A stretch of DNA of 60,030 bases from Escherichia coli (lineage in GTDB: Bacteria; Pseudomonadota; Gammaproteobacteria; Enterobacterales; Enterobacteriaceae), in the NCBI RefSeq assembly GCF_003334405.1, contig NZ_QOWM01000020.1, one strand, 5' to 3'. Below are positions 9,943 to 49,050 of the stretch, one piece after another. The translations under genes were made by a program, and so were the position numbers. The first letter of the stretch is position 1; each line of letters begins with the position of its first letter. The notes below the pieces were generated by a model, which saw only the letters and a program-made list of their open reading frames with translations, was not told the origin of the DNA and made no database searches.

Positions 9943-10821
9943 ATGAAACTGGGATTTATTGGCTTAGGCATTATGGGTACACCGATGGCCATTAATCTGG
10001 CGCGTGCCGGTCATCAATTACATGTCACGACCATTGGACCGGTTGCTGATGAATTACTGTCACTGGGTGCCGTCAGTGTTGAAACTGCTCGCCAGGTAAC
10101 GGAAGCATCGGACATCATTTTTATTATGGTGCCGGACACACCTCAGGTTGAAGAAGTTCTGTTCGGTGAAAATGGTTGTACCAAAGCCTCGCTGAAGGGC
10201 AAAACCATTGTTGATATGAGCTCCATTTCCCCGATTGAAACTAAGCGTTTCGCTCGTCAGGTGAATGAACTGGGCGGCGATTATCTCGATGCGCCAGTCT
10301 CCGGCGGTGAAATCGGTGCGCGTGAAGGGACGTTGTCGATTATGGTTGGCGGTGATGAAGCGGTATTTGAACGTGTTAAACCGCTGTTTGAACTGCTCGG
10401 TAAAAATATCACCCTCGTGGGCGGTAACGGCGATGGTCAAACCTGCAAAGTGGCAAATCAGATTATCGTGGCGCTCAATATTGAAGCGGTTTCTGAAGCC
10501 CTGCTATTTGCTTCAAAAGCCGGTGCGGACCCGGTACGTGTGCGCCAGGCGCTGATGGGCGGCTTTGCTTCCTCACGTATTCTGGAAGTTCATGGCGAGC
10601 GTATGATTAAACGCACCTTTAATCCGGGCTTCAAAATCGCTCTGCACCAGAAAGATCTCAACCTGGCACTGCAAAGTGCGAAAGCACTTGCGCTGAACCT
10701 GCCAAACACTGCGACCTGCCAGGAGTTATTTAATACCTGTGCGGCAAACGGTGGCAGCCAGTTGGATCACTCTGCGTTAGTGCAGGCGCTGGAATTAATG
10801 GCTAACCATAAACTGGCCTGA
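9943..10821 (+). CDS. glxR: Tartronate semialdehyde reductase
   Basis: 292 aa; Rossmann motif GLGIMGTPMA; synteny. Confidence 0.9.
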   Translation: MKLGFIGLGIMGTPMAINLARAGHQLHVTTIGPVADELLSLGAVSVETARQVTEASDIIFIMVPDTPQVEEVLFGENGCTKASLKGKTIVDMSSISPIETKRFARQVNELGGDYLDAPVSGGEIGAREGTLSIMVGGDEAVFERVKPLFELLGKNITLVGGNGDGQTCKVANQIIVALNIEAVSEALLFASKAGADPVRVRQALMGGFASSRILEVHGERMIKRTFNPGFKIALHQKDLNLALQSAKALALNLPNTATCQELFNTCAANGGSQLDHSALVQALELMANHKLA

Positions 10822-11131: not shown

Positions 11132-12444
11132 TGGTCGGCGGCTTTTTTATTCTCGGCTTGTCTACCTTTAGTATTATGCTGGCAATTATCCTCAGCGCCT
11201 TTTTCATTGCCGCGGTAATGGTATTAAACGGTGCTGCGGGCAGTAAATACGGTGTGCCTTTTGCCATGATCCTGCGTGCTTCTTACGGTGTACGTGGTGC
11301 ACTGTTTCCCGGATTATTAAGGGGCGGAATTGCCGCCATCATGTGGTTTGGTTTGCAATGTTACGCGGGGTCACTGGCCTGCTTGATTCTGATTGGCAAA
11401 ATCTGGCCGGGATTTTTAACTCTCGGTGGTGATTTCACTCTGTTAGGCCTTTCTCTACCGGGCTTAATTACTTTCTTAATCTTCTGGCTGGTCAACGTTG
11501 GTATAGGTTTTGGCGGTGGCAAAGTTTTAAATAAATTCACTGCCATTCTTAACCCGTGCATCTATATCGTTTTCGGCGGTATGGCGATTTGGGCGATTTC
11601 ACTGGTCGGGATCGGTCCAATCTTTGACTACATTCCGAGCGGTATTCAGAAAGCAGAAAACGGTGGCTTCCTGTTCCTGGTGGTGATTAACGCGGTAGTT
11701 GCGGTCTGGGCGGCACCGGCGGTGAGCGCATCCGACTTTACGCAAAACGCCCACTCGTTTCGTGAGCAGGCGCTGGGGCAAACGCTGGGTTTAGTTGTGG
11801 CCTATATTCTGTTTGCGGTCGCCGGGGTATGTATTATTGCCGGAGCCAGTATTCACTACGGCGCTGATACCTGGAACGTGCTGGATATTGTTCAGCGTTG
11901 GGACAGCCTGTTCGCCTCGTTCTTTGCGGTACTGGTTATTCTGATGACAACTATCTCCACTAACGCGACCGGTAATATTATTCCAGCCGGTTATCAGATT
12001 GCCGCCATTGCACCGACAAAACTGACCTATAAAAACGGCGTACTGATTGCCAGTATTATCAGCTTGCTGATCTGCCCGTGGAAATTAATGGAAAATCAGG
12101 ACAGCATTTATCTTTTCCTCGATATTATCGGCGGAATGCTTGGTCCGGTAATTGGTGTCATGATGGCGCATTATTTTGTGGTGATGCGCGGACAAATTAA
12201 TCTTGATGAACTGTATACCGCACCTGGCGATTATAAATATTACGATAACGGTTTTAACCTCACTGCGTTTTCAGTAACTCTGGTGGCCGTTATTTTATCT
12301 CTTGGCGGTAAGTTTATTCACTTTATGGAACCGTTATCGCGTGTTTCATGGTTTGTCGGCGTCATCGTCGCCTTTGCGGCCTACGCCTTATTAAAGAAAC
12401 GTACAACAGCAGAAAAAACAGGAGAGCAAAAAACCATAGGTTAA
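10990..12444 (+). CDS. ybbW: Allantoin permease, NCS1 family
   Basis: 484 aa polytopic membrane protein; synteny within the allantoin cluster. Confidence 0.9.
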   Translation: MEHQRKLFQQRGYSEDLLPKTQSQRTWKTFNYFTLWMGSVHNVPNYVMVGGFFILGLSTFSIMLAIILSAFFIAAVMVLNGAAGSKYGVPFAMILRASYGVRGALFPGLLRGGIAAIMWFGLQCYAGSLACLILIGKIWPGFLTLGGDFTLLGLSLPGLITFLIFWLVNVGIGFGGGKVLNKFTAILNPCIYIVFGGMAIWAISLVGIGPIFDYIPSGIQKAENGGFLFLVVINAVVAVWAAPAVSASDFTQNAHSFREQALGQTLGLVVAYILFAVAGVCIIAGASIHYGADTWNVLDIVQRWDSLFASFFAVLVILMTTISTNATGNIIPAGYQIAAIAPTKLTYKNGVLIASIISLLICPWKLMENQDSIYLFLDIIGGMLGPVIGVMMAHYFVVMRGQINLDELYTAPGDYKYYDNGFNLTAFSVTLVAVILSLGGKFIHFMEPLSRVSWFVGVIVAFAAYALLKKRTTAEKTGEQKTIG

Positions 12445-12503
12445 TTAATCCCGATATTGAACATTGAGTTAAAAACCAATCTGTATTTTACAAGGAGTTT
12501 GTT

Positions 12504-13865
12504 ATGTCTTTTGATTTAATCATTAAAAACGGCACCGTTATTTTAGAAAACGAAGCTCGCGTTGTAGATATCGCCGTTAAAGGCGGAAAAATTGCTGCTA
12601 TCGGTCAGGATCTGGGCGATGCAAAAGAAGTTATGGATGCGTCTGGTCTGGTGGTTTCGCCGGGCATGGTTGATGCGCACACCCATATTTCTGAACCGGG
12701 TCGTAGCCACTGGGAAGGTTATGAAACCGGTACTCGCGCAGCGGCAAAAGGTGGTATCACCACCATGATCGAAATGCCGCTCAACCAGCTGCCTGCAACG
12801 GTTGACCGCGCTTCAATTGAACTGAAGTTCGATGCCGCTAAAGGCAAGCTGACTATTGATGCGGCACAACTCGGTGGCCTGGTGTCTTACAACATCGACC
12901 GTCTGCATGAGCTGGATGAAGTGGGCGTTGTCGGCTTCAAATGCTTCGTTGCGACCTGTGGCGATCGCGGTATCGACAACGACTTCCGTGATGTAAACGA
13001 CTGGCAGTTCTTCAAAGGTGCGCAGAAGCTGGGCGAACTGGGTCAGCCGGTGCTGGTGCACTGCGAAAACGCGCTGATTTGTGACGAACTGGGCGAAGAA
13101 GCGAAGCGTGAAGGTCGCGTAACCGCTCATGACTATGTGGCTTCGCGTCCGGTATTTACCGAAGTGGAAGCAATTCGCCGCGTACTGTATCTGGCGAAAG
13201 TTGCTGGTTGCCGTCTGCACGTTTGCCACGTCAGCAGCCCGGAAGGTGTTGAGGAAGTGACTCGTGCACGTCAGGAAGGTCAGGACGTTACTTGTGAATC
13301 CTGCCCGCATTACTTTGTACTGGATACCGATCAGTTCGAAGAAATCGGTACTCTGGCGAAGTGTTCACCGCCGATCCGCGATCTGGAAAACCAGAAAGGC
13401 ATGTGGGAAAAACTGTTTAACGGTGAAATCGACTGCCTGGTTTCCGACCACTCTCCATGCCCGCCGGAAATGAAAGCCGGTAACATCATGAAAGCATGGG
13501 GCGGTATCGCCGGTCTGCAAAGCTGCATGGACGTGATGTTCGATGAAGCGGTACAGAAACGCGGTATGTCTCTGCCAATGTTCGGCAAATTAATGGCGAC
13601 TAACGCAGCAGATATTTTCGGTCTGCAGCAAAAAGGCCGTATCGCCCCAGGAAAAGATGCCGACTTCGTCTTCATTCAGCCGAATAGCAGCTATGTTCTT
13701 ACCAATGACGATCTGGAATATCGCCACAAAGTCAGCCCGTATGTTGGCCGTACCATTGGCGCGCGTATCACGAAAACCATCTTACGTGGTGATGTGATTT
13801 ACGACATTGAACAGGGCTTCCCTGTTGCGCCGAAAGGTCAATTTATCCTTAAACATCAGCAGTAA
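12504..13865 (+). CDS. allB: Allantoinase
   Basis: 453 aa; amidohydrolase metal-binding motifs (DAHTHI ... HVCHVSS). Confidence 0.9.
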
Positions 13866-36702: not shown

Positions 36703-37218
36703 ATGAGAAGAGTACTCTTTAGCTGTTTCTGCGGGCTACTGTGGAGTTCCAGTGGATGGGCAGTTGACCCTTTAGGAACGATTAATATCAATTTGCACGG
36801 TAACGTTGTTGATTTCTCCTGTACCGTAAACACAGCGGATATTGATAAGACGGTAGATTTAGGCAGATGGCCTACGACACAACTACTGAACGCTGGCGAT
36901 ACCACGGCACTCGTCCCTTTTAGCCTGCGGCTGGAGGGATGTCCTCCGGGTTCAGTTGCGATTTTATTTACGGGAACGCCGGCATCCGATACCAACCTGC
37001 TGGCTCTGGATGATCCCGCAATGGCACAAACCGTCGCCATCGAATTACGTAATAGCGATCGCTCCCGGCTCGCACTGGGGGAGGCGAGCCCGACTGAGGA
37101 AGTAGATGCAAATGGCAATGTCACACTAAACTTTTTTGCCAATTATCGAGCGTTAGCCAGCGGTGTTCGGCCAGGTGTGGCGAAAGCGGATGCGATATTT
37201 ATGATCAATTATAATTAA
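36703..37218 (+). CDS. sfmF: Fimbrial minor subunit
   Basis: ~171 aa from MRRVLFSCFCGLLWSSSGWA. Confidence 0.8.
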   Translation: MRRVLFSCFCGLLWSSSGWAVDPLGTININLHGNVVDFSCTVNTADIDKTVDLGRWPTTQLLNAGDTTALVPFSLRLEGCPPGSVAILFTGTPASDTNLLALDDPAMAQTVAIELRNSDRSRLALGEASPTEEVDANGNVTLNFFANYRALASGVRPGVAKADAIFMINYN

Positions 37219-37220
37219 TA

Positions 37221-37853
37221 TTATATTAATTCGTATAATTTGGCGTAGTCGATAAGCTCTACAATTGAATGCAAACCTAGCTTGCCATAAATATTAGATT
37301 TATGCGCACTAACTGTTTTATTGCTAAGTAATAACTTATCGGCAATTTCTTTATTAGATAATCCGCTAACCAGATAACGTAATATGGTCACTTCACGATT
37401 AGATAGCACAGTGACCGTTGAACTATTCGTACTACATTTATTGCTTTTTATATAGTTAAGCGTTTCGCTGGGAAAAAACGTGTATCCGGAGAGGATCATC
37501 TGAACGGCATGAAAAATATCATTCTGATCATTGCATTTACTGACAAAACCGTTAGCACCAGCTTGTATCGCTCTGCCAGCATAAAAGCATTCTGATTTCG
37601 ATGATAAAAATAACACTTTCACTGTGCTCTGGATTTGTTTGATCCTTTTCAGGAAGGTAAAACCGTCTGTTCCGGGCAAGTCTATATCCATAATGATTAA
37701 ATCAACAGGACGGGTTCGGAGATAATCGATGGTTATGCGATAATCATCCGTTTTCAGGACAATCTGCAATTCACTGTTTTTTTGCAACAGAACTTCAATA
37801 GACATTCTGATGATAGGATGAGTATCCATAATGATCACCGACGTTGGTTTCAT
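37221..37853 (-). CDS. fimZ: LuxR/NarL-family response regulator of fimbrial expression
   Basis: ~210 aa from MKPTSVIIMDTHPI; receiver domain plus C-terminal LuxR HTH. Confidence 0.85.
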   Translation of the reverse strand: MKPTSVIIMDTHPIIRMSIEVLLQKNSELQIVLKTDDYRITIDYLRTRPVDLIIMDIDLPGTDGFTFLKRIKQIQSTVKVLFLSSKSECFYAGRAIQAGANGFVSKCNDQNDIFHAVQMILSGYTFFPSETLNYIKSNKCSTNSSTVTVLSNREVTILRYLVSGLSNKEIADKLLLSNKTVSAHKSNIYGKLGLHSIVELIDYAKLYELI

Positions 37854-38036
37854 AGTTACCAGTCTCATAGGAGCGGACAATTTTCCGTTAGGTCGGGAAA
37901 TTGTACTTTGATACATGAAAATACGGGTTTTCTTGATTCAGACGCGCAGCGGTGTGCGTTTGTTTGCCGCTATAGCGAAATAAATCAGAAAATCAGACGC
38001 GGTCGTTCACTTGTTCAGCAACCAGATCAAAAGCCA

Positions 38037-38064
38037 TTGACTCAGCAAGGGTTGACCGTATAAT
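38037..38064 (+). promoter_or_regulatory. Candidate sigma70 promoter for argU
   Basis: TTGACT (38037-42), 16-bp spacer, TATAAT (38059-64), about 30 bp upstream of the tRNA 5' end. Confidence 0.45.
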
Positions 38065-38095
38065 TCACGCGATTACACCGCATTGCGGTATCAAC

Positions 38096-38172
38096 GCGCC
38101 CTTAGCTCAGTTGGATAGAGCAACGACCTTCTAAGTCGTGGGCCGCAGGTTCGAATCCTGCAGGGCGCGCCA
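38096..38172 (+). tRNA. argU: tRNA-Arg (anticodon UCU)
   Basis: 77-nt cloverleaf GCGCCCTTAGCTCAGTTGGATAGAGC...CTTCTAAGTCG...GGTTCGAATCCTGCAGGGCGCGCCA with anticodon loop cuUCUaa and encoded CCA. Confidence 0.9.
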
Positions 38173-38217
38173 TTTCTTCCTCATTTATGCCCGTCTTATC
38201 CGTTTCCGCTTTGCCCT

Positions 38218-38979
38218 TCACCACATCACTTTTTGTCGCTGTTTGGCGAGATAATTCAACGGTGTCAGGCCGTAAAACGCCTTAAAAACAGAGATAAAGT
38301 ACGACGTGCTGCTATAGCCACATAATTGCGCCACCTGAGTGATATTTTTGTTATCCATCAATAACATCTGTACGGCGTAACGCATACGACACTCTGTGAC
38401 AATCTGGCTATAGCTGGTATTTTCGTTTTTTAATTTCTTTTTGAGCAGGCTGGGGCTTAAACATAGCGAACTGGCGACAATTCGCAGATTCCAGTAATGC
38501 TGAATATCGCTTTGAATAATGCGGCAGACGCTGTCGCGGACGCTGCTGCGTAAGATATACATCAGTAGGGCAATAAACCGCGATTGCTCAAGAAAGTTAG
38601 ACAATACGGTAAAAAGCAATGCGCGCGTCAACTCCGCTTCGCAGGGTCTGCTGGGTTGCTGCTTGCTGTGGTTGGCGGCTAGCCGGAACACTTCCGGTGT
38701 ACGGCTATGACAAGCGATAACCGGGGTTGCCAGCCGCGACCAGGGCTTTACACAGGTTAAGTTCTTATTTAAAAACAACAGATAATCGTTGATGATGTTA
38801 CGGTTGATGTGGGTGATTAATACGTGATTTAACGTTGAGAGTTCAATGACGTTATTGTTGCACGCGAAGGCGGCCAGGTAGTTTTTCGGAAGGGTAAACG
38901 TAGCATGGTTATTGACGCTTACCTCTACCTCTTTTTCGGTCAGGATCACCACGCAAGGTTCACTGCTGCTCAATTGCAT
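38218..38979 (-). CDS. envY: AraC-family transcriptional regulator (porin thermoregulation)
   Basis: 253 aa; C-terminal AraC-type HTH. Confidence 0.85.
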   Translation of the reverse strand: MQLSSSEPCVVILTEKEVEVSVNNHATFTLPKNYLAAFACNNNVIELSTLNHVLITHINRNIINDYLLFLNKNLTCVKPWSRLATPVIACHSRTPEVFRLAANHSKQQPSRPCEAELTRALLFTVLSNFLEQSRFIALLMYILRSSVRDSVCRIIQSDIQHYWNLRIVASSLCLSPSLLKKKLKNENTSYSQIVTECRMRYAVQMLLMDNKNITQVAQLCGYSSTSYFISVFKAFYGLTPLNYLAKQRQKVMW

Positions 38980-39161
38980 TTCGCACTCCTCAGATATCAG
39001 AAACTCCGCTCAAAGGATCTATGCTTCCTGCATGAGTGATCGGCCCGTTCGCCGATAACGATCTTCTTTCTTTAGCACGCTTTTTAGCAATTAATCTTGA
39101 TGGAATTCTGATGAGAGCGAAAGAGGTAAGCCAGGTCGTACCCGACTTACCTGGAGGAGAT

Positions 39162-40052
39162 TTAATACTCGAGAATGCCGTGCGCGACGGGCAAATAGCG
39201 CAGAGAGAAATAGAGAGTGTCTTTACCGCAAGAGGAACGTTTCGCTAACAGCGAGGCAATTTCTGCGTCCGGTTTCGGTTTCGCTGTAAAGGTTTTGCCT
39301 TTGCCGGCGACAAAAAGTTCATAAACAACGCCGCTGGCAGGGGCGGGACTTTGGCAATCGGCGCTGGCCTGTAAATAACGTTCACGCTGTTCAGCGGTCA
39401 GTTTATCCACGCCGCTGCCATCCTGTACCCAGACATTAACGCCGGTTGCTTTAACGTGTTCCAGCAGTTGGCGATAGCCATCGGGCGACATGTTTCCGGC
39501 GAAAAAACTACTGATATAAACCGGTTTTGCTGAAACATCGCTAATCAGCCGCTGCGCGTTGTTTAACCATGTTAGCAAAGGCTGACGGGCGGCTTCGCTG
39601 CGCCAGTTCAGGTCGTCAATTTCCGCGCTGATGTACCAGCCATCCGGCGTTATGCCAGGCGCGGCGCTCCATAATCTGGCTTGCTGGAGATCGGCAGCCA
39701 GCAGGCGATTAAGATAGCTTTCCAGCGCTGCGGACGACTGTTTCTGGTGCATAAAAAATTCCGGATCGGCGTTCAGCCCGACAATAAGCTTCAGACCAGC
39801 CTGTTGCGCAGCTGCGGCCCGCTTAAACAATAACGTGCGCTGTTCTGGCTGGGTAAATGCATCGCCGTAACGGGTCCATTGCAAAACAAGGGTATCGAAG
39901 CCTTGCAAACGTAACTGACTCATCAGCCCCTGCCACTGGGTATCGGTAACCTGACTATCTCGGTTTTGTGGTTGCCAGATAATACCTTTCATCGCAAAGG
40001 AAAAAGGGCTGACCAAAAGCAGTGTCAGCAATACGAAAATGAACTTACGCAT
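39162..40052 (-). CDS. ybcH: Periplasmic protein of the nfr locus (YbcH), secreted
   Basis: 296 aa with signal peptide MRKFIFVLLTLLLVSPFSFA; directly downstream of nfrA. Confidence 0.8.
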   Translation of the reverse strand: MRKFIFVLLTLLLVSPFSFAMKGIIWQPQNRDSQVTDTQWQGLMSQLRLQGFDTLVLQWTRYGDAFTQPEQRTLLFKRAAAAQQAGLKLIVGLNADPEFFMHQKQSSAALESYLNRLLAADLQQARLWSAAPGITPDGWYISAEIDDLNWRSEAARQPLLTWLNNAQRLISDVSAKPVYISSFFAGNMSPDGYRQLLEHVKATGVNVWVQDGSGVDKLTAEQRERYLQASADCQSPAPASGVVYELFVAGKGKTFTAKPKPDAEIASLLAKRSSCGKDTLYFSLRYLPVAHGILEY

Positions 40053-43025
40053 TTACCAGTGCACTCCAATGGTGAGAAACGCGTTGTTGCGCTCTCCGTT
40101 ACGTTGATTAATCGCCTTAAAGGTATGTTGATACTCGACGCCGAGACTGACTTTGTGCGGCCAGGCGTCGTAGTGCGTCTCGCCGGTCCAGATATTCCAG
40201 CGGACCCCGACTCCGCCAAGCTGCGCGCCCTGAGTGCCTTTATCACGATAGCCGTTGTCCTGAACGTGAGCGTAAGGCTCAATAGTCTGTCCGTTAGCTA
40301 CCTTCTGATGCCAGCTGACGCGATAATCTGCCGTCCACGCCTGAATATCCTGGCGGATATATTGCGCCGCATCGAGGTACAGGTTTTGGGCAAACCAGCC
40401 TGAACCGTTCGGGTGCCATTCGTCGCTGTATTTGCCGCCATTAAAGAATGAGGCGCTGGCGCGCAGCATGGTATCGGATGCGCCATTTTGGCCGTTCAGC
40501 GGCAACTGCTGTTCGACGGCGATGAAAAAGATCTGATCGCGCAGCGGCTTCCAGCGCAGACCGGTGCCGGACATCGGATTTTTCACCGGCATCATCACCC
40601 CGTTTTCTCCGGTATCGGCAAAGACGCGGCTATAAACTGAGAGCAGGTCGCCTTCCAGCAGCATATTGCGTCCGATGCGGTACTCGGCTTCCAGTTGTCC
40701 GTAGCTACGATAGCTTTTCCCTGGCGCTGCGCCGCCGACATTATTGTTAGCGGTACTCATTGCGCCGGAACGCAAGCCGATGGAAGAATCGAAACTGAAC
40801 GTCCAGCGGCGACCGACCTCCTCATGCAAACGGCGGAAATTGAAGCGTTGTTGATTTTGTTCTGGGGTCAGTGGGGTTATCAGCGCCTGATTATCAATGT
40901 CATCAATCACCAGCCGGGCGTAGTGCTGCGTCGCAGGCATGTCATCCAGACGCTGGTTCACGTAGGCCAGTTGTCGGATCAGTGCCGGATCGTCCGGAAG
41001 CCCTTTATGCGCCGGTTCGAGCATTTCCCGCGACTGTGCGATATCACCGCTATCCCACAAGGCGTAACCAAGCGCTGCCTGGGTGTTGCTATTATTCGGT
41101 TCCAGTTCCAGCGCGGCGCGCAAATCACTCACCGCGGCCGGGACATTATGACGTTGGCGATAAATTGTCGCCCGCGCAACGTAAGCGTTGGCAGAAGGCG
41201 CAATATTGATTGAGCGCGTGAGATCGTTCAGTGCGAGTTCCGGCTGACCAGGAATGTAACGTTGCGCATGCAGCCACCAGTAGAGGGCATTGCTTCCCAG
41301 TCCACGTTTTTCTGCCTGTTGTAGCCAGCGATCGCGAGCCGCACCATTTCCTGCCGCCTGGGCGGTATTGGCAGCAGCAAGCAGATCCTCATTGCTCATG
41401 TCGTGAAGACTGATTTTCTGCCAGGCCGCCAGTGCGGTGGCGTAGTCCTCAACCTGATACGCCTGATAGGCTACCGCACGATGTTGCCAGGCGCTCGGTT
41501 GTCGTTGTTCGGCCTGAAGCCATGCATACAACGCCACACCGGGTAGCGTGTCCCGATAACACTTTGCCAGACGGTTCCAGGCGGCGGCATCGTAGGAAGG
41601 CGACATATCGCCCAGCAAGCGAACTATTGCCGGGCAATTATCTGCAATACCCGGCAACTGACTTTGCCACTGATGTTGCTCCGCCAGCGGTAAGGGTTTC
41701 GATAAAATCGCCACCTTCGCCGGCGTTGCCAGGTAAGGATGACTTTCCAGCAGAGACGCCAGTCGCGCCATTAAAGTCTGGCTGACACGCGCATCGCCCT
41801 GGAAAGGATAGCGTTGCAGCAATAAATCGGCAGCTTCGCGTGACTGCTCGTTCTGCATCAGTTGCCAGGTTAGTTGATCCAGGCGGGTAAGATTTGCCGG
41901 TTCTTGCTGATACAGCAATCGTGCCAGACGCAGAGCTTCAGCCTTGTTACGGGTCGCCACGCTGACAGCATAACGCTCCTCAAGCATTTCATTGGCGGGG
42001 AGGGTGGCGAGCAGTTTTTGCGCTGCGTCGTACTGACCTTCTTTTAACAGCACCGGTAGCGTCGCGCCAACAACATACTGGCGGTTGTCGGCAAACTGTA
42101 CCGTATAATTCGCCAACGCCTGAACGGGGTTAGCGCTGTATTTAGATAACAGATAGAGCCAACTTTTCTCTTGTGCGTCCGTGGTAAATAGTGGCTTATT
42201 TTCAATGAGATAATGCTGGAGGCGTGCTTTTTCGCCACGATAAGCCAGCGCGGTCGCGTAAGTAATATATGACTGAGGATCGGTGAAGATCCCCTGTGAT
42301 TGCAGTGCCAGGATCCGATCGTCCAGCTGCCCGGCAAGAAGCACGTCAAACCACTGACGGCGTTCTGCCGCGCTTAATGTGTTCTGCTGGCGTGCTTCAT
42401 TGTATAGCGTATCTGCCTGGGACCATTGTTTCAGGTAGATTGCCCGTTGCAGCAGATCGGTTCGCAGCGTTTTTCCTTCCGGCGATGCAGCAAACGTCGC
42501 ATCGTTCAGTTGCGCTCTGGCGACAGGTAACTGTGCCAGCCGCAGGGCATTCTGCCCGACTTCACTGCGACAACGCAGGGTCGGCGCAGCATCGCACGCT
42601 TTTTGCTGGGCAAGCAGTTCTTCAACTGTCGTAACGCTTTTCACTTCAACCGGAATAGCCGCCAGACTGCGCTCAAGTCGGGCATCTCCTGGGTGACGTT
42701 TCAGTTGATCCTCAAGCAACAGCCGCGCCCGGTCATCATGACCAAAATGGCGATAGGCTTCCGCAAGGTATAAAGTCAGCGGAATATTATCCGGCACCTG
42801 CTGGTGTATATATTCAAATTCGCGGATGGCGGTTGCTTCGTCGTTATTTTTCTGTGCCTTCAGCGCTTTATCGAGACGGGGATAAATAACAAAATGGCGA
42901 TAATCGCTCAGCCCCAGCTCTTCTGCGCTGGTGCCGATATTGTCTGCGAGTGCGCTGGTACTCAATAAAGACGTCAGCAGTAAACCAGACCATCCGATGA
43001 CGCGATTAAGGTTATTCTCCTTCAT
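40053..43025 (-). CDS. nfrA: Outer-membrane phage N4 adsorption protein A (TPR-rich periplasmic domain plus C-terminal beta-barrel)
   Basis: ~990 aa; signal peptide; ends ...FLTIGVHW (aromatic C-terminus typical of OM barrels). Confidence 0.85.
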   Translation of the reverse strand: MKENNLNRVIGWSGLLLTSLLSTSALADNIGTSAEELGLSDYRHFVIYPRLDKALKAQKNNDEATAIREFEYIHQQVPDNIPLTLYLAEAYRHFGHDDRARLLLEDQLKRHPGDARLERSLAAIPVEVKSVTTVEELLAQQKACDAAPTLRCRSEVGQNALRLAQLPVARAQLNDATFAASPEGKTLRTDLLQRAIYLKQWSQADTLYNEARQQNTLSAAERRQWFDVLLAGQLDDRILALQSQGIFTDPQSYITYATALAYRGEKARLQHYLIENKPLFTTDAQEKSWLYLLSKYSANPVQALANYTVQFADNRQYVVGATLPVLLKEGQYDAAQKLLATLPANEMLEERYAVSVATRNKAEALRLARLLYQQEPANLTRLDQLTWQLMQNEQSREAADLLLQRYPFQGDARVSQTLMARLASLLESHPYLATPAKVAILSKPLPLAEQHQWQSQLPGIADNCPAIVRLLGDMSPSYDAAAWNRLAKCYRDTLPGVALYAWLQAEQRQPSAWQHRAVAYQAYQVEDYATALAAWQKISLHDMSNEDLLAAANTAQAAGNGAARDRWLQQAEKRGLGSNALYWWLHAQRYIPGQPELALNDLTRSINIAPSANAYVARATIYRQRHNVPAAVSDLRAALELEPNNSNTQAALGYALWDSGDIAQSREMLEPAHKGLPDDPALIRQLAYVNQRLDDMPATQHYARLVIDDIDNQALITPLTPEQNQQRFNFRRLHEEVGRRWTFSFDSSIGLRSGAMSTANNNVGGAAPGKSYRSYGQLEAEYRIGRNMLLEGDLLSVYSRVFADTGENGVMMPVKNPMSGTGLRWKPLRDQIFFIAVEQQLPLNGQNGASDTMLRASASFFNGGKYSDEWHPNGSGWFAQNLYLDAAQYIRQDIQAWTADYRVSWHQKVANGQTIEPYAHVQDNGYRDKGTQGAQLGGVGVRWNIWTGETHYDAWPHKVSLGVEYQHTFKAINQRNGERNNAFLTIGVHW

Positions 43026-45249
43026 TTTCGGACTCCAGTTGCGCAACCTGTTCTGTGTTTAAACCTGCTTTGAGTAATAGTGATTGCATCGAAACTTGTA
43101 ATTCGCGTTGAATTGTCAGGACGCGATCCAACGTTTCCTGGCTGATAACGCCTTCGGTGACCAAAAACTTGCCGAGCGGCAGAGAACTGCGTTCATGGCG
43201 CAATAACAACACGTTAATTGCTGAACGATTAATATGACCGAGCGTGGTCAGTATTTCGGCGAACAGGAACTGATGCGGCACATATTGCCGCCAGATTTCA
43301 CCGGCCTGCTGTTCCGTGAGCCACTGATGCTGAACCGCATTGTACAACATTGCCCGCGGATCGTGACCGCGTCGGCGTGCATACCAGTGACGTAACCCTG
43401 TGACAATTTGTCCCCGCAGAACAATGACGTAACGCACTTTGCGTCCGACTTTACGCGTCAGGGCCGCCAGCGAAACCGGGTCAATACCATCTTCACTGCC
43501 GACAATTAACTCGTCATTTTCCAGACGCAGCGGCAGTACCGCATAATGCAGCGCCACGGAGGCCGGCATTTCGGCAATCAGCGAGGAAGGGATCTGCCAG
43601 GCATCGATGGATTCCCACGCCACGCCGTTTTGCTCTGCCAGCGCCTGTGCCAGCTGCTCGGCGCTAATCAGCCCCTGCATCAGCATTGAACCGCCCAGGC
43701 GTAGACCTTCGACGCGATTACGCAGTGCTGTATCGAGTTGTTCTTCAGTGATGACCTGATTTTCCAGCAGAATTTGACCTAACGGGCGCAACGAGCGGGT
43801 ATCGCCAGTCACGCTGGGGAAGTCATGCGTTGTTTTATCCCACGCCACGCGACGTGGATCGCCGTGTTGAAGTACCTGTTTTAGCGCGCGCCAGTTGGCC
43901 ATGAAGTTAATCAGGTTGCCCCAGAAAAGACGCAGGACGGAAAGCAGCCCCTGCGTCAGGCCGTAGTAGCCAGTAACGAAAATCACCCGCTGCACGATGC
44001 GGTTAACCATCAAACCAAAGTTTAGCCACAGCAGGGTCATTAACCATGCGCTGCCGCTGAAAATAGAAAGGAAATGCCAGGCATCGGGCCACAAACTTTC
44101 ATACGCCAGCAACAGCAAAAGCTGGATCATCACCAGCATCGCGAGGAAGCTGACAAAGTTACTGATTGCCCCTTTGCGGTCGCGCCAGAGAAAGTAGTTC
44201 AGCGTCAGGCTGGAGGTCCATTTATGGGTTTTAAAGCCTTGGAAAACAATGCCGATGATCCAGCGGGATTTTTGTCGAACCGCAGTCGAAAAGGTATCGG
44301 GGAAATATTCGCGCACGCAGATCATGTTTGATGTCCGCGCGTGCTGTAAAAATTTACGCTGCTCGCGTTCTTTGGCTTCGTCCACCACCGGAAAACGGAC
44401 AAAAATTTCCGTCATACCTTTTTCTTTCAGGCGGAAGCCAATGTCGTAATCTTCAGTAAGACTCTGCACGTCGAAAGCAATACCGTCACCGTCAGCTAAC
44501 AGTGCGGTCACGGCGCGGCGGCTGAAACAGGTGCCGACGCCTGCGCTGGGCACTTGTCCGGCGAGGGCTTCACGCACCGGAACATCTTTGCCATGCAGCT
44601 CTGAAAACTCATCAATGTAAGTCATGCTGGTGAAGTGCGTCCATTCGCGTTCGAACGGATACACCGGGATCTGAATCAGATCTTTACGCTCGACCAGATA
44701 GTTGAACAGACGCAATTCCATCGGTGAAATCACATCTTCGGCGTCATGCAGAATAAAACCAGCAAAAGCGAAATTGGCGCTACGCTCAAATTGGGTGATG
44801 GCGTCCAGCACGTTGTTCAGACAGTCGGCTTTGCTGGTGGGGCCAGGACGCGCGCAGACTACCTTATGCACATTCGGGAAGCGAGCGCACACTTCGTCAA
44901 CATCACGCTGAGTATCGGGGGCGTTGGGGTAGGTGCCAACAAAGATATGATAGTTTTCGTAGTCGAGCGTGGTCGCCGCCAGCTCGGCCATATTGCCGAT
45001 GACGCCCGTTTCATTCCACGCCGGAACCATAATCGCTAACGGTTTTTCATCTGGTTTATACAGTTCGCGGTAACTCATTCGCGGGTAGCGGCGATAAACA
45101 CTCAACTTGCGTTTAATGCGGCGTACCCAGTAGACGACATCAATAAAAAAATCGTCCAGCCCGCTGATGAACATGATGACCGCTAACGTTATCGCGATTA
45201 CTTTTAAGCCGTAGAGCCAGGTAGCAAAAACATCAAGAAGCCAGTCCAC
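43012..45249 (-). CDS. nfrB: Inner-membrane family-2 glycosyltransferase with C-terminal MshEN-type c-di-GMP-binding motifs (phage N4 adsorption protein B)
   Basis: 745 aa; N-terminal TM helix; GT2 D-x-D-type motif (ILHDAEDVIS); C-terminal repeats RLGGSMLMQGLISAEQLAQALAEQ and LGKFLVTEGVISQETLDRVLTIQ; 14-nt overlap with nfrA. Confidence 0.85.
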   Translation of the reverse strand: MDWLLDVFATWLYGLKVIAITLAVIMFISGLDDFFIDVVYWVRRIKRKLSVYRRYPRMSYRELYKPDEKPLAIMVPAWNETGVIGNMAELAATTLDYENYHIFVGTYPNAPDTQRDVDEVCARFPNVHKVVCARPGPTSKADCLNNVLDAITQFERSANFAFAGFILHDAEDVISPMELRLFNYLVERKDLIQIPVYPFEREWTHFTSMTYIDEFSELHGKDVPVREALAGQVPSAGVGTCFSRRAVTALLADGDGIAFDVQSLTEDYDIGFRLKEKGMTEIFVRFPVVDEAKEREQRKFLQHARTSNMICVREYFPDTFSTAVRQKSRWIIGIVFQGFKTHKWTSSLTLNYFLWRDRKGAISNFVSFLAMLVMIQLLLLLAYESLWPDAWHFLSIFSGSAWLMTLLWLNFGLMVNRIVQRVIFVTGYYGLTQGLLSVLRLFWGNLINFMANWRALKQVLQHGDPRRVAWDKTTHDFPSVTGDTRSLRPLGQILLENQVITEEQLDTALRNRVEGLRLGGSMLMQGLISAEQLAQALAEQNGVAWESIDAWQIPSSLIAEMPASVALHYAVLPLRLENDELIVGSEDGIDPVSLAALTRKVGRKVRYVIVLRGQIVTGLRHWYARRRGHDPRAMLYNAVQHQWLTEQQAGEIWRQYVPHQFLFAEILTTLGHINRSAINVLLLRHERSSLPLGKFLVTEGVISQETLDRVLTIQRELQVSMQSLLLKAGLNTEQVAQLESENEGE

Positions 45250-45398
45250 ACAAAAACCTTACATTAACGCTGGTTATGTTTAGGGTGGCGTATATTAAGG
45301 TTTTTTATGAATTGTGACAGCTTTTTACCATTAATAGGTATGACTATTGCGGCACGTTATTTTTACACTGGTTATAAAAGTTGCCGTTTGCTGAAGGA

Positions 45399-46841
45399 TT
45401 AAGCGGGTAATGTGATAACAAACCTTGTCCCCCGCGCATCCGACGTTACCGCAACCGTGCCTTTATGCGCGACAACAATCGATTTCACTATCGCCAGGCC
45501 AATACCGCTACCTTCACCTTTTCGCTGGCGGGAGGGGTCAACGCGATAGAAACGGTCAAACAATCGCGGTAAGTGCTCGGGCGCAATGGGCGTACCGGGG
45601 TTTTCGACGATAACTTGCACCAGGTGATCGACCGTCTGACAGCGCACTACAATTGTCTCTCCGGTTGGCGTATAACGCAGGGCGTTCGAAAGCAGGTTGC
45701 TTAGCGCCCGACGCAGCATCAGCGGATCGCCCGCGACCTGACACTTGTCGCCAACAAACCGCAACTCCACGCCGCGATCTTCCGCTAACGCCTCGAAAAA
45801 ATCGAACACTTTGCCGACTTCATCCGCCAGGTTGAGCATTTTCTTTTCGGGGATTAGCTGGTTGTTATCGGCCTGAGCGAGAAACAGCATATCGCTGACC
45901 ATTTTCGCCATTCGCGTCAGCTCTTCGAGATTAGAGTAGAGCACATCTTCCAGCTCCTTCTGGCTGCGCGACTGGCTGAGGGCGATTTCGGTTTGCGTTA
46001 TGAGATTCGTAATTGGTGTGCGAATTTCGTGAGCGATATCCGCTGAGAAATTGGACTGGCGGGTAAAGACATCCTCAATACGCTCGATCATATGGTTGAA
46101 CGACAGTACCAGCTGTTCCAGCTCAATGGGCACGGTCTGCGGGTCAAGGCGAACGTCGAGATCTTTCGAGGTAATATTCTGGATTTGACGGCTGACGCTG
46201 CGGATCGGCGCGTGACCTTTATGTACCGCCAACAGCACGATAAAGACGATCAGGATGCTGATTACCGATGCGGTCATAATAAGTTTATTCATCAAATCAT
46301 TTATGTAATGAAGATGAAAATCGATCGAAAGCGCGATGTAGAGCGTATAAATCGGTTTGCCGTCAACCAGCGGGCCAACCGGTAAGTTAATCATCCGCCA
46401 GTTGCTGTGTTCCATATGCCCGTGACCGTGCCCTGGCATCATAATCGTCGGGCCGGAAAGGAGATACACCTCGCCGCCCCGCGCGTCTTTATCGGGTATG
46501 GCGTCACGCGTAAACTCGCGGATATCGGGCGCACCGGGGGAGTGATACACCGTTTTACCCTGACTATCTGCCAGGGAAATCAACACATTGGAATAACCAC
46601 TGACGATATCTTCCAGCGTCATTAAGCGTCGGGCTTGCGTTTCGTCAGGGTGATTTAGTACCCGTTCAAGGGTGGCGCTAATCTCTTTTAAATCATTAAT
46701 ATCCTGCTCGGCAAAATGCACTTTTACTGAGTGGATCATGATCCATGCAAAGGCGAAAAACGCCGCGATGGTGGCCAGGCTGATAAAAAAGGTCAGGCGG
46801 GTTGCCAGCGAAAACGGGCGCTGAAATGGCTTACTGACCAT
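45399..46841 (-). CDS. cusS: Copper/silver-sensing histidine kinase
   Basis: ~480 aa; two TM segments, H-box ([10 protein letters not shown]) and HATPase domain; overlaps cusR. Confidence 0.9.
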
Positions 46842-47514
46842 CCGGCACCTCAAGCATGTAACCCACGCCGCGCACGGTTTGAATCAGCTTCGGCTCAAAG
46901 TCGTTGTCGATTTTGCCGCGTAGCCGCTTCACCGCCACATCAATGGCGTTAGTGTCGCTGTCGAAATTCATGTCCCATACCTGCGAGGCGATAAGCGAGC
47001 GGGGCAGCACTTCGCCCTGATGGCGAAGGAAAAACTCCAGCAGAGTAAATTCTTTACTGGTCAGAGTGATGCGCGTGCCGCTGCGGGTGACTTTGCGGCT
47101 GACGAGATCGACCATCAGATCGGCAACCTGAAACTGACTTTCGATAATCACCGCCGCCCCGCGCCGCAGGAGAGTGCGCACCCGCGCCAGCAGTTCAGCA
47201 AAAGCGAACGGCTTCACCAGATAGTCATCGGCCCCCAACTCCAGCCCCTTGACGCGATGTTCAATGGTGCCAAGCGCGGTAAGCAACAGAATCGGCATCC
47301 CTTTATTGGCGGAGCGCAACATGCGCACGATATCCCAGCCGTTCACGTCCGGCAGCATAATATCGAGGATTATCAGGTCATAATCTCCGGTCATCGCCAG
47401 ATGGTAGCCATTCAGCCCGTTGTCGGCCAAATCGACCACAAAACCGGCTTCGGTTAACCCTTTGGTCAAGTATTCTCCGGTTTTCTTTTCATCTTCGACA
47501 ATCAGCAGTTTCAT
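46831..47514 (-). CDS. cusR: OmpR-family response regulator of the cus operon
   Basis: 227 aa; receiver plus winged-helix domain. Confidence 0.9.
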
Positions 47515-47568
47515 ATTTCCTCCACATGTTGCCCGGGCAATTCTAGAGTAGCGGGATCAGATGGCAAT

Positions 47569-47590
47569 CGCTTATTGGCAAAATGACAAT
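47569..47590. promoter_or_regulatory. CusR box in the cusR-cusC divergent promoter
   Basis: Perfect inverted repeat AAAATGACAA-tt-TTGTCATTTT. Confidence 0.7.
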
Positions 47591-47670
47591 TTTGTCATTT
47601 TCCTGTCACCGGAAAATCAGAGGCTGGCGAGTAAAGTTGGCGGCATAAAATCACCAGAAATTATGAGCCT

Positions 47671-49050
47671 ATGTCTCCTTGTAAACTTCTGCCATTTTGT
47701 GTGGCCCTTGCGCTAACCGGTTGTTCACTGGCACCGGATTATCAGCGCCCGGCAATGCCCGTACCGCAGCAGTTCTCACTCAGCCAGAACGGCCTCGTTA
47801 ACGCAGCAGATAACTATCAGAACGCGGGCTGGCGCACCTTTTTTGTTGATAATCAGGTGAAGACGCTGATTAGCGAGGCGCTGGTGAATAACCGGGATTT
47901 GCGCATGGCGACGCTGAAAGTGCAGGAGGCACGGGCGCAATATCGTCTGACTGATGCCGACCGCTACCCACAGCTCAATGGCGAGGGCAGCGGCAGCTGG
48001 AGCGGTAATCTTAAAGGGAATACCGCCACGACACGGGAGTTTTCGACCGGCCTTAACGCCAGCCTTGACCTCGATTTTTTCGGTCGCTTAAAGAACATGA
48101 GCGAAGCCGAGCGACAAAATTATTTAGCCACTGAGGAAGCTCAGCGCGCGGTGCATATTCTGCTGGTTTCTAATGTCGCGCAAAGCTATTTCAATCAGCA
48201 ACTGGCGTATGCGCAATTGCAAATAGCCGAAGAAACGCTGCGTAATTATCAGCAGTCATATGCGTTTGTCGAAAAACAACTGTTGACCGGTAGCAGCAAT
48301 GTTCTGGCGCTGGAACAGGCTCGCGGGGTGATAGAAAGTACCCGCAGTGACATCGCTAAACGTCAGGGGGAACTGGCGCAGGCGAATAATGCATTGCAAC
48401 TGTTATTGGGAAGCTACGGCAAGCTGCCGCAAGCGCAGACAGTAAACAGCGACAGTCTGCAAAGCGTTAAATTACCGGCGGGCTTGTCGTCGCAAATCTT
48501 ATTGCAGCGCCCGGATATTATGGAAGCTGAACACGCGTTAATGGCGGCTAATGCCAATATTGGTGCTGCGCGTGCGGCATTTTTCCCGTCTATCAGCCTG
48601 ACCAGCGGAATATCGACCGCCAGCAGCGATCTGTCGTCATTATTTAACGCCAGCAGCGGGATGTGGAATTTTATACCCAAAATTGAGATCCCCATTTTTA
48701 ATGCCGGACGCAACCAGGCCAATCTGGATATCGCCGAAATTCGCCAGCAGCAGTCGGTAGTGAATTATGAACAGAAAATCCAGAACGCCTTTAAAGAAGT
48801 GGCAGATGCGCTGGCATTACGTCAAAGCCTGAACGATCAAATCAGCGCCCAGCAGCGTTATCTGGCGTCGCTGCAAATTACTTTGCAACGGGCGCGGGCA
48901 TTATATCAGCACGGCGCGGTAAGTTATCTGGAAGTGCTGGATGCCGAGCGTTCTTTATTTGCAACCCGACAAACCTTACTTGACCTGAATTATGCCCGTC
49001 AGGTCAACGAAATTTCTTTATATACCGCACTTGGTGGCGGTTGGCAGTAG
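47671..49050 (+). CDS. cusC: Outer-membrane factor of the Cu/Ag RND efflux system (lipoprotein)
   Basis: 459 aa; lipobox LTGC. Confidence 0.9.
   Translation: MSPCKLLPFCVALALTGCSLAPDYQRPAMPVPQQFSLSQNGLVNAADNYQNAGWRTFFVDNQVKTLISEALVNNRDLRMATLKVQEARAQYRLTDADRYPQLNGEGSGSWSGNLKGNTATTREFSTGLNASLDLDFFGRLKNMSEAERQNYLATEEAQRAVHILLVSNVAQSYFNQQLAYAQLQIAEETLRNYQQSYAFVEKQLLTGSSNVLALEQARGVIESTRSDIAKRQGELAQANNALQLLLGSYGKLPQAQTVNSDSLQSVKLPAGLSSQILLQRPDIMEAEHALMAANANIGAARAAFFPSISLTSGISTASSDLSSLFNASSGMWNFIPKIEIPIFNAGRNQANLDIAEIRQQQSVVNYEQKIQNAFKEVADALALRQSLNDQISAQQRYLASLQITLQRARALYQHGAVSYLEVLDAERSLFATRQTLLDLNYARQVNEISLYTALGGGWQ

What the first reader, a model, noticed from the sequence alone, without database searches (positions are those of the whole stretch)
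39162..45249. ybcH-nfrA-nfrB: three-gene envelope machine built like a synthase-dependent exopolysaccharide secretion system with a c-di-GMP receptor
NfrB combines an N-terminal TM anchor, a family-2 glycosyltransferase core (DAED motif) and C-terminal repeats matching the MshEN c-di-GMP-binding signature. NfrA is a TPR-rich outer-membrane protein with a barrel-like C-terminus, and YbcH is a secreted periplasmic protein; the nfrB stop overlaps the nfrA start by 14 nt. This resembles Bcs/Pga/Pel-type systems; the locus is known as the phage N4 receptor, and NfrB has been reported as a c-di-GMP-controlled glycosyltransferase, but the polymer itself and the role of YbcH remain poorly defined as far as I know.
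Basis: partly seen in the sequence, partly recalled or inferred. Interest (0 to 1): 0.6.

Follow-up and report, generated by a model that had tools for sequence, protein, structure and literature searches.

The report
Known E. coli phage-N4 sugar-export operon
This is the ordinary E. coli nfrB-nfrA-ybcH operon, shown in 2021 to be a c-di-GMP-switched machine that makes and exports the surface sugar phage N4 lands on; the only addition here is that its uncharacterised third protein, YbcH, looks like a sugar-cutting enzyme rather than a scaffold.

Summary
Window 39162-45249 (minus strand) holds ybcH, nfrA and nfrB. nfrB and nfrA overlap by 14 nt. NfrB has a family-2 glycosyltransferase core (DAED, TED, QxxRW) and an MshEN c-di-GMP module. 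NfrA has TPR repeats plus the NfrA_C domain. YbcH has a signal peptide.

Junkermeier & Hengge (PMC8669469) and Sellner et al. (PMC8669472), both 2021, showed c-di-GMP binding (Kd about 1 uM). They showed that glycosyltransferase and MshEN mutants resist N4, that the system depends on WecB/UDP-ManNAc, that DgcJ signals locally, and that YbcH is dispensable. RefSeq already names NfrB accordingly.

What I add:
- YbcH models confidently as a (beta/alpha)8 glycoside-hydrolase-like barrel. Two glutamates on strands 4 and 7 are invariant, and the gene stays fused to nfrBA across Gamma- and Betaproteobacteria. It is probably the system's periplasmic hydrolase.
- NfrB carries extra conserved MshEN-like repeats at residues 660-737.
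- Natural nfrB lesions exist, and the window's own allele has D110A at a family-invariant Asp.

Novelty: already known. Interest is low.

The parts
43012..45249 (-). nfrB: inner-membrane, c-di-GMP-activated family-2 glycosyltransferase (745 aa, GTG start)
   Evidence: ORF and translation. NCBIfam NfrB equivalog scores 1328.7 bits against a cut-off of 1170. RefSeq annotation agrees.
45130..45231 (-). NfrB N-terminal membrane helix (about residues 7-40)
   Evidence: Kyte-Doolittle peak of 2.07. The AF2 model has a helix at 2-50.
44104..45042 (-). NfrB GT2 (GT-A) catalytic domain, residues 70-382
   Evidence: Pfam PF13632 and PF13641. Foldseek finds BcsA, hyaluronan synthase and CesA.
44734..44745 (-). 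DAED (DxD) motif, residues 169-172
   Evidence: Regex hit. D169, E171 and D172 are invariant in 21 homologues. D169A abolishes N4 plating (PMC8669469).
44449..44457 (-). TED motif, residues 265-267
   Evidence: The D267A phenotype is reported in PMC8669469.
44260..44274 (-). QxxRW (QKSRW) processivity motif, residues 326-330
   Evidence: The W330A phenotype is reported in PMC8669469.
43864..44208 (-). Membrane and interface helices between the GT and MshEN domains (residues 348-462)
   Evidence: AF2 helices at 348-386, 401-429 and 431-462. Hydropathy peak at 360-388.
43630..43788 (-). Tandem 24-residue c-di-GMP-binding motifs of the MshEN domain (residues 488-540)
   Evidence: NCBIfam NF053729 scores 66.4 bits against a cut-off of 38. 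PDB relatives are MshE and PilF. G491L and G519S phenotypes are published.
43366..43626 (-). C-terminal alpha/beta half of the MshEN domain (residues 542-628)
   Evidence: Pfam PF05157, E 9e-14.
43030..43272 (-). Additional conserved MshEN-N-like helical repeats (residues about 660-740); ligand unknown
   Evidence: An HMM of residues 486-545 hits this region at 15-36 bits, against at most 9.6 in 420 shuffles. It is conserved down to 48% identity. Its four-helix pattern matches that of 490-541.
43012..43025 (-). 14-nt nfrB stop / nfrA start overlap (translational coupling)
   Evidence: The sequence is ATGAAGGAGAATAA.
40053..43025 (-). nfrA: outer-membrane TPR + barrel export protein and phage N4 receptor (990 aa)
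   Evidence: NCBIfam NF007302 scores 1888 bits. Pfam finds TPR repeats and NfrA_C.
40902..42926 (-). NfrA periplasmic TPR-rich region (residues about 34-708)
   Evidence: Pfam TPR_19, TPR_14 and TPR_11 hits. PDB TPR relatives.
40056..40883 (-). NfrA C-terminal putative beta-barrel (residues about 715-990, including Pfam NfrA_C at 809-977)
   Evidence: PF13283, E 1e-67. The terminal Trp is conserved in 16 of 17 homologues. The barrel itself was not modelled here; an AlphaFold model is shown in PMC8669472.
39162..40052 (-). ybcH: periplasmic DUF4434 protein, predicted (beta/alpha)8 glycoside hydrolase (296 aa)
39993..40052 (-). YbcH signal peptide (residues 1-20, SFA|M)
   Evidence: Position -1 is Ala in 27 of 28 homologue N-termini that carry a leader, and -3 is usually small. 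Cleavage is inferred from the (-3,-1) rule and was not computed.
39621..39623 (-). YbcH Glu144 codon, candidate acid/base on strand beta4
   Evidence: Invariant in alignments A1 and A3, down to 25% identity. Lies within strand 138-146. Aligns to Glu of 4h41.
39318..39320 (-). YbcH Glu245 codon, candidate nucleophile at the end of strand beta7
   Evidence: Invariant in A1 and A3. Lies in strand 241-245.
45250..45398 (-). cusS-nfrB spacer, presumed operon promoter region
   Evidence: 149 nt and AT-rich. The simple scan found no sigma-70 consensus here. Low expression is reported in PMC8669469.

Best explanation
This is the E. coli nfrB-nfrA-ybcH operon, a synthase-dependent exopolysaccharide machine.

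Steps shown in the literature:
- WecB supplies UDP-ManNAc.
- NfrB sits in the inner membrane. It needs its D,D,D,QxxRW active site and c-di-GMP binding by its C-terminal MshEN domain. The c-di-GMP is supplied locally by DgcJ.
- NfrA is needed for phage N4 infection. N4 first binds the secreted glycan (NGR) and then NfrA.

Steps inferred from homology:
- NfrB both polymerises the chain and threads it through the membrane.
- NfrA's TPR region guides the chain across the periplasm, and its C-terminal barrel is the outer-membrane pore.

Inferred here:
- YbcH is a secreted (beta/alpha)8 glycoside hydrolase of the '4/7' type, with Glu144 as acid/base and Glu245 as nucleophile. It would trim or clear the polymer in the periplasm. 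That is the job done by BcsZ, the PgaB C-terminal domain, PslG, PelA and AlgL in sister systems.
- This fits YbcH being helpful but not essential.
- The extra MshEN-like repeats at residues 660-737 are a conserved part of the regulatory module. Their partner is unknown.
For: Identity of the locus:
- 100% DNA identity to E. coli chromosomes annotated nfrB/nfrA/ybcH.
- NCBIfam equivalogs score above their cut-offs for all three proteins.

Synthase:
- GT2 Pfam hits and invariant DxD, TED and QxxRW motifs.
- Best folds are BcsA, hyaluronan synthases and CesA.

c-di-GMP sensor:
- NF053729 scores above its cut-off, and MshE/PilF c-di-GMP-bound structures are matched.
- Binding and mutant phenotypes are published.

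Substrate:
- wecB lies directly upstream of nfrB, on the same strand, in 25 of 48 related loci. These are mostly taxa outside the Enterobacterales.

YbcH:
- The model has pLDDT 91.6.
- E144 and E245 are invariant down to 25% identity. The invariant residues sit at the C-terminal ends of all eight strands.
- The order nfrB-nfrA-ybcH is kept, with 0-8 nt gaps or overlaps, in every locus with enough upstream DNA except one.
- A ybcH disruption gives a moderate N4 fitness effect in droplet Tn-seq.
Against: - The polymer has never been isolated or chemically defined in any paper I could find.
- YbcH hydrolase activity is untested. The published view is 'scaffold, possibly membrane-anchored'.
- The YbcH strand-4 motif is A-E, not the N-E typical of clan GH-A.
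- The only solved relative, 4h41, is an uncharacterised structural-genomics target.
- NfrB has only about 3-4 membrane helices, against 8 in BcsA, so a channel may need oligomers or a partner.
- The NfrB model is only moderately confident (pLDDT 73.8).
- NfrA's barrel has no sequence relative in the PDB and was not modelled here.
Confidence: 0.88

Rival explanations
1. YbcH is a non-catalytic periplasmic scaffold or adaptor, possibly anchored by an uncleaved signal sequence. It would link NfrB to NfrA and would not cut the polymer. This is the published suggestion.
For: PMC8669469 and PMC10211494 describe it this way. TIM-barrel glycosidase folds are sometimes reused as binding modules. The strand-4 motif is AE rather than NE. 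Deletion does not abolish N4 plating.
Against: Two glutamates at the canonical beta4/beta7 positions are invariant down to 25% identity. Invariant residues cluster at the catalytic face of all eight strands. That pattern is typical of an enzyme. Position -1 is Ala, and -3 is usually small, in 27 of 28 leaders, which fits signal peptidase I cleavage. Hydrolases of sister systems are also dispensable.
Confidence: 0.3
2. NfrB is not a polymer-translocating synthase. It would transfer one or a few ManNAc residues onto a lipid or protein acceptor, in the manner of GtrB, ArnC or DPMS-type GT2 enzymes, and NfrA would be mainly a protein receptor.
For: Foldseek also lists PcManGT, DPMS, GtrB and ArnC. 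NfrB has few membrane helices. No polymer has been isolated.
Against: The invariant QxxRW motif and the TED motif are typical of processive synthases. BcsA is the best fold match. A TPR + barrel exporter and a hydrolase-like partner are conserved in the operon. Overproduction hinders flagellar rotation, as cellulose does.
Confidence: 0.07
3. The copy in this window is a hypomorphic or inactive allele, because it carries Ala in place of the family-invariant Asp110 just after GT-A strand beta2.
For: Asp110 is present in all 20 other aligned homologues. The Ala allele is in 124 complete E. coli genomes and the Asp allele is in 4901. Other natural nfrB lesions exist.
Against: D110 is not one of the motifs tested experimentally. 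I could not map it onto BcsA by sequence. The rest of the operon is intact.
Confidence: 0.3

Closest known systems
Nfr system of E. coli K-12 (NfrB/NfrA/YbcH; Junkermeier & Hengge 2021, Sellner et al. 2021)
   Same: It is the same locus. The gene order, the 14-nt overlap, the motifs and the domain layout all match. Protein identity to the common E. coli NfrB is 99%.
   Different: The window allele has D110A in NfrB. From my own knowledge of the K-12 map, this strain also lacks the DLP12 prophage, ompT and appY that lie between argU and envY in K-12.
Bacterial cellulose synthase system (BcsA-PilZ, BcsB, BcsC, BcsZ)
   Same: It has an inner-membrane processive GT2 with QxxRW that is switched on by c-di-GMP. 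It has a TPR + barrel outer-membrane exporter and a periplasmic glycoside hydrolase. A dedicated cyclase signals locally.
   Different: The sensor is MshEN rather than PilZ. There is no BcsB-like subunit. NfrB has far fewer membrane helices. The substrate is UDP-ManNAc rather than UDP-glucose. The hydrolase candidate is a DUF4434 TIM barrel, not a GH8 enzyme.
Pga system (PgaCD, PgaB, PgaA)
   Different: In Pga, c-di-GMP binds at the PgaC-PgaD interface and there is no dedicated domain. PgaB also has a deacetylase domain, which is absent here. NfrA's barrel has no detectable sequence link to solved structures.
MshE / PilF MshEN (GSPII) c-di-GMP receptor domains
   Same: The tandem 24-residue motifs and the fold match, with Foldseek TM about 0.7 to c-di-GMP-bound 5htl and 8pdk.
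   Different: Here the domain is attached to a glycosyltransferase rather than a secretion ATPase. It is followed by extra degenerate repeats at 660-737. G491 is replaced by D or E in the Rhodanobacteraceae homologues.
BT_0435 (PDB 4h41), a DUF4434 structural-genomics target
   Different: Identity is only 15%. It comes from Bacteroides, has no Nfr context, and has no known function.

Membership tests
Synthase-dependent exopolysaccharide secretion systems (Bcs/Pga/Pel/Alg type) | Inner-membrane processive GT2 synthase with D,D,D,QxxRW | tested here: met
   Pfam GT2 E 2e-40. DAED, TED and QKSRW are present and invariant. BcsA is the top Foldseek hit.
Synthase-dependent exopolysaccharide secretion systems (Bcs/Pga/Pel/Alg type) | Post-translational activation through a c-di-GMP receptor | tested here: met
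   The MshEN motif model scores 66.4 bits against a cut-off of 38. Binding itself is published, with Kd about 1 uM, and was not measured here.
Synthase-dependent exopolysaccharide secretion systems (Bcs/Pga/Pel/Alg type) | TPR-containing periplasmic scaffold joined to an outer-membrane beta-barrel porin | tested here: inconclusive
   TPR repeats, the NfrA_C domain, a signal peptide and a conserved terminal Trp were found. The barrel was not modelled here and has no sequence relative in the PDB. An AlphaFold barrel is shown in PMC8669472.
Synthase-dependent exopolysaccharide secretion systems (Bcs/Pga/Pel/Alg type) | Periplasmic polymer-cleaving or polymer-modifying enzyme encoded in the operon | tested here: inconclusive
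   YbcH has a glycosidase-like TIM-barrel fold and invariant E144/E245. Its activity is untested.
Synthase-dependent exopolysaccharide secretion systems (Bcs/Pga/Pel/Alg type) | No Wzx/Wzy or ABC-transporter genes and no lipid-linked repeat-unit pathway | tested here: met
   The operon holds only three genes, flanked by cusS and envY. Independence from wecA is published.
Synthase-dependent exopolysaccharide secretion systems (Bcs/Pga/Pel/Alg type) | A secreted high-molecular-weight polysaccharide product | not testable with these tools
   The evidence in the literature is genetic only. No chemical structure was found.
MshEN c-di-GMP-binding domain | Two tandem 24-residue motifs (RLGxx[LVI][LVI]xxG[LVI][LVI]xxxxLxxxLxxQ) about 5 residues apart, followed by an alpha/beta subdomain | tested here: met
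   Motif II (517-540) matches every position. Motif I (488-511) has PLG, with Q at the Gly position. Pfam MshEN covers 542-628.
Clan GH-A ('4/7') retaining glycoside hydrolases (for YbcH) | (beta/alpha)8 barrel with the acid/base Glu at the end of strand 4 and the nucleophile Glu at the end of strand 7 | tested here: met
   The model has eight strands. E144 lies in strand 138-146 and E245 ends strand 241-245. Both are invariant. The inter-carboxylate distance could not be measured.
Clan GH-A ('4/7') retaining glycoside hydrolases (for YbcH) | Asn immediately before the acid/base Glu (NE motif) | tested here: not met
   The sequence is S-A-E144. Ala or Pro precedes the Glu in homologues.
Clan GH-A ('4/7') retaining glycoside hydrolases (for YbcH) | Measured glycosidase activity | not testable with these tools
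   No paper in the library mentions DUF4434 or PF14488.

The most novel reading that the evidence does not exclude
YbcH is an active glycoside hydrolase specific for the ManNAc-containing NGR polymer. It would be the first characterised member of DUF4434, and so a new glycoside hydrolase family. Separately, the conserved second MshEN-like module of NfrB (residues 660-737) is a second regulatory site, for c-di-GMP or for docking DgcJ. Under this reading, natural alleles that delete exactly the c-di-GMP motif pair (residues 471-545), or that swap the N-terminus for a PAAR/Rhs fragment, are phage-selected switches of receptor production.
Probability: 0.35. Interest if true: 0.45.

Novelty: already known. 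Interest (0 to 1): 0.15.

Why it matters
The locus controls whether E. coli displays the glycan used as a receptor by N4 and several other phages. It is also a textbook case of local c-di-GMP signalling. That was established in 2021, so the finding as written adds nothing new.

The open parts remain the chemical identity of the polymer, what YbcH does, and how a synthase with so few membrane helices exports a chain. A predicted catalytic pair in YbcH gives a direct, cheap experiment. Natural nfrB variants could also matter for predicting phage susceptibility of clinical strains. These variants are D110A (the allele in this window), the deletion of the c-di-GMP motif pair, and the PAAR/Rhs fusion.

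Tried and rejected
- BLASTP between the two NfrB repeat regions gave nothing. The HMM test with shuffled controls replaced it.
- Sequence and profile searches of the PDB found no solved Nfr protein. For the NfrA C-terminus they found only TPR proteins. They found no BcsA match for the NfrB GT domain. As a result, D110 could not be mapped onto a known UDP-binding residue.
- YbcH has no relative in the phage collection.
- The Rfam scan of 37000-47700 found only tRNA-Arg.
- The consensus promoter scan found nothing in the cusS-nfrB spacer, and the terminator-like hits are all inside coding sequence.
- Literature searches for DUF4434, PF14488 and BT_0435 returned only unrelated papers. A search for post-2021 chemistry of NGR returned none.
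- Junction-specific 41-nt queries for the 225-bp deletion allele found only 1 + 5 complete genomes. The allele is therefore rare in that set, despite being seen in 823 blocks of the larger collection.
- I considered horizontal acquisition. GC content is 0.49-0.58 with no anomaly and the locus is in 97% of E. coli genomes, so I rejected it.
- Opposite-strand ORFs of 60-172 aa inside nfrA and nfrB have no support and were treated as chance.
Full report
**Observation**

Window 39162-45249 carries three co-directional genes on the minus strand.
- ybcH: 39162-40052, 296 aa.
- nfrA: 40053-43025 from its ATG, 990 aa.
- nfrB: 43012-45249, GTG start, 745 aa.

The nfrB stop and the nfrA start share ATGAAGGAGAATAA, exactly 14 nt, and the nfrA TAA abuts the ybcH ATG. 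The 6,088 bases are 100% identical to several E. coli chromosomes. 5244 of 5426 complete E. coli genomes carry the locus. RefSeq annotates the genes as 'cyclic di-GMP-activated glycosyltransferase NfrB', 'bacteriophage adsorption protein NfrA' and 'DUF4434 family protein'. They are flanked by cusSR on one side and by envY and tRNA-Arg on the other.

**Domains**

- NfrB matches the NfrB equivalog at 1328.7 bits (cut-off 1170). It also matches two GT2 Pfam families (E 2e-40 and 2e-34), the MshE-type c-di-GMP motif model (66.4 bits, cut-off 38, residues 489-540) and Pfam MshEN (542-628).
- DAED (169-172), TED (265-267) and QKSRW (326-330) are present. They are invariant in 21 homologues down to 48% identity.
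- An AlphaFold2 model (pLDDT 73.8) shows an N-terminal helix, a GT-A domain and three long helices at 348-462. These are followed by a disordered linker, the MshEN domain and a helical tail.
- Foldseek puts BcsA first, followed by hyaluronan synthases and plant CesA. For the C-terminal part it finds c-di-GMP-bound MshE and PilF.
- NfrA has a signal peptide, TPR repeats and the NfrA_C domain (E 1e-67). Its terminal Trp is conserved in 16 of 17 homologues.
- YbcH has a signal peptide and a full-length DUF4434 match (E 2e-69).

**Literature**

- Junkermeier & Hengge (mBio 2021, PMC8669469) describe the operon, including the 14-nt overlap. They show specific c-di-GMP binding by NfrB residues 414-745 with Kd 1 +/- 0.35 uM. 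D169A, D267A and W330A abolish N4 plating, and L490A, L490/537A and G491L reduce it. wecB is needed but wecC is not. DgcJ interacts with NfrB. YbcH is dispensable.
- Sellner et al. (mBio 2021, PMC8669472) reach the same model and name the product NGR.
- A 2023 review still calls the polymer uncharacterised and YbcH a potential scaffold.
- A 2025 droplet Tn-seq preprint reports a 'partial contribution' of ybcH to N4 infection.
- I found no later chemistry of the polymer and no paper that mentions DUF4434.

**YbcH**

- With a 29-sequence alignment, YbcH models at pLDDT 91.6 as an eight-stranded (beta/alpha) barrel.
- A family profile also reaches 4h41 (E 6e-4), with the GWY..E strand-4 motif aligned.
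- Glu144 (strand 138-146) and Glu245 (end of strand 241-245) stay invariant in an alignment reaching 25% identity. So do Q27, Q58, W59, G92, S181, Q210, G212 and F247.
- The conserved residues together lie at or just after the C-terminal end of each of the eight strands. This is the geometry of clan GH-A retaining hydrolases, although the usual Asn before the acid/base is Ala here.
- In 27 of 28 leader sequences, position -1 is Ala, and -3 is usually small. That fits signal peptidase I cleavage and disagrees with the published statement that no cleavage site exists. I could not run a signal-peptide predictor.

**Conservation**

- A scan of one genome per species with the YbcH alignment returned 48 loci. 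They come from Enterobacterales, Aeromonas, Rhodanobacteraceae, Chromobacteriaceae-like Betaproteobacteria, Halomonas and Motilimonas.
- The order nfrB-nfrA-ybcH is kept in every locus with enough upstream DNA except one, from Luteimonas. The nfrA-ybcH junction usually overlaps or is at most 8 nt.
- A wecB equivalog lies directly upstream of nfrB, on the same strand, in 25 loci. Nearly all of these are outside the Enterobacterales. This independently reproduces the published argument for UDP-ManNAc.

**Mechanism**

- Published experiments show that N4 infection requires UDP-ManNAc from WecB, an active and c-di-GMP-binding NfrB, NfrA, and DgcJ.
- Homology suggests that NfrB polymerises and translocates the chain, and that NfrA guides it and lets it out.
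- I infer that YbcH is the periplasmic hydrolase of the system. I put the probability at about 0.55-0.6, against about 0.3 for the published non-catalytic scaffold role.
- A lipid- or protein-glycosylating role for NfrB is unlikely but not excluded, because no polymer has been isolated and NfrB has few membrane helices.

**Extra features of NfrB**

An HMM built from residues 486-545 finds additional copies at about 660-737 in all listed homologues. Scores are 15-36 bits, against a maximum of 9.6 in 420 shuffles. The model gives this region the same four-helix pattern as 490-541, and its key residues are conserved down to 48% identity. The 2021 paper does not use the terms 'second MshEN' or 'stoichiometry'. 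Whether the module binds a ligand is unknown.

**Verdict**

The novelty class is 'already known'. The leftover value is a testable catalytic hypothesis for YbcH, plus some allele-level observations listed separately.

Noticed in passing
window 44920-44922 (nfrB codon 110): The window's NfrB has Ala110 (GCC). All 20 other aligned homologues have Asp in the motif YPNDPDT, just after GT-A strand beta2. SNP-centred queries find the Ala allele in 124 complete E. coli genomes and the Asp allele in 4901. This copy may have reduced activity.
   Followed up: partly
window 43613-43625 and 43838-43850 (13-nt direct repeats GCGTGGCGTGGGA on the gene strand); loci L050-L053: A natural 670-aa nfrB allele (P0195) has an in-frame 225-bp deletion between these repeats. 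It removes residues 471-545, which is the whole c-di-GMP-binding motif pair, while nfrA and ybcH stay intact. It is seen in 823 blocks of the protein collection but in only 1 + 5 of 5426 complete genomes. Two junction haplotypes occur, which suggests the deletion has happened more than once.
   Followed up: partly
loci L054, L055 (8001-11807); corresponds to window about 45088-45400: In many E. coli (P0150, 1231 blocks), a vgrG / DcrB-like / PAAR-DUF6531 (Rhs) module lies between cusS and nfrB. A 1268-aa chimeric ORF joins the PAAR/Rhs fragment in frame to NfrB residues 55-745, so the nfrB promoter and N-terminal helix are lost. The nfrB 5' segment is found in 5011 complete genomes and the whole locus in 5244, a difference of 233.
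   Followed up: partly
alignment A2, NfrB residue 491: Gly491 is replaced by Asp or Glu in the Rhodanobacteraceae homologues (Dyella, Rhodanobacter, Oleiagrimonas). Its substitution blocks N4 infection in E. coli. Motif II Gly519 stays nearly invariant.
   Followed up: no
window 38096-38172 and 38218-38979: tRNA-Arg (anticodon tct) lies 45 nt from envY. From my own knowledge of the K-12 map, K-12 carries the DLP12 prophage, appY and ompT between argU and envY, so this strain lacks that insertion.
   Followed up: no
locus L034 (Aeromonas tecta) 11296-13686: A pgaA porin gene (780 bits) follows ybcH about 400 nt downstream. Two synthase-dependent polysaccharide systems therefore sit side by side, and the nfr cluster there begins with wecB.
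   Followed up: no
locus L043 (Luteimonas panaciterrae) 10001-10801: This is the only YbcH homologue (40% identity) with no nfrB or nfrA within 10 kb upstream.
   Followed up: no
window 39131-39154: A hairpin-capable sequence (CCAGGT...ACCTGG, overlapping AGGTAAG...CTTACCT) starts 8 nt after the ybcH stop. It has no T-run and was not called by the terminator scan.
   Followed up: no
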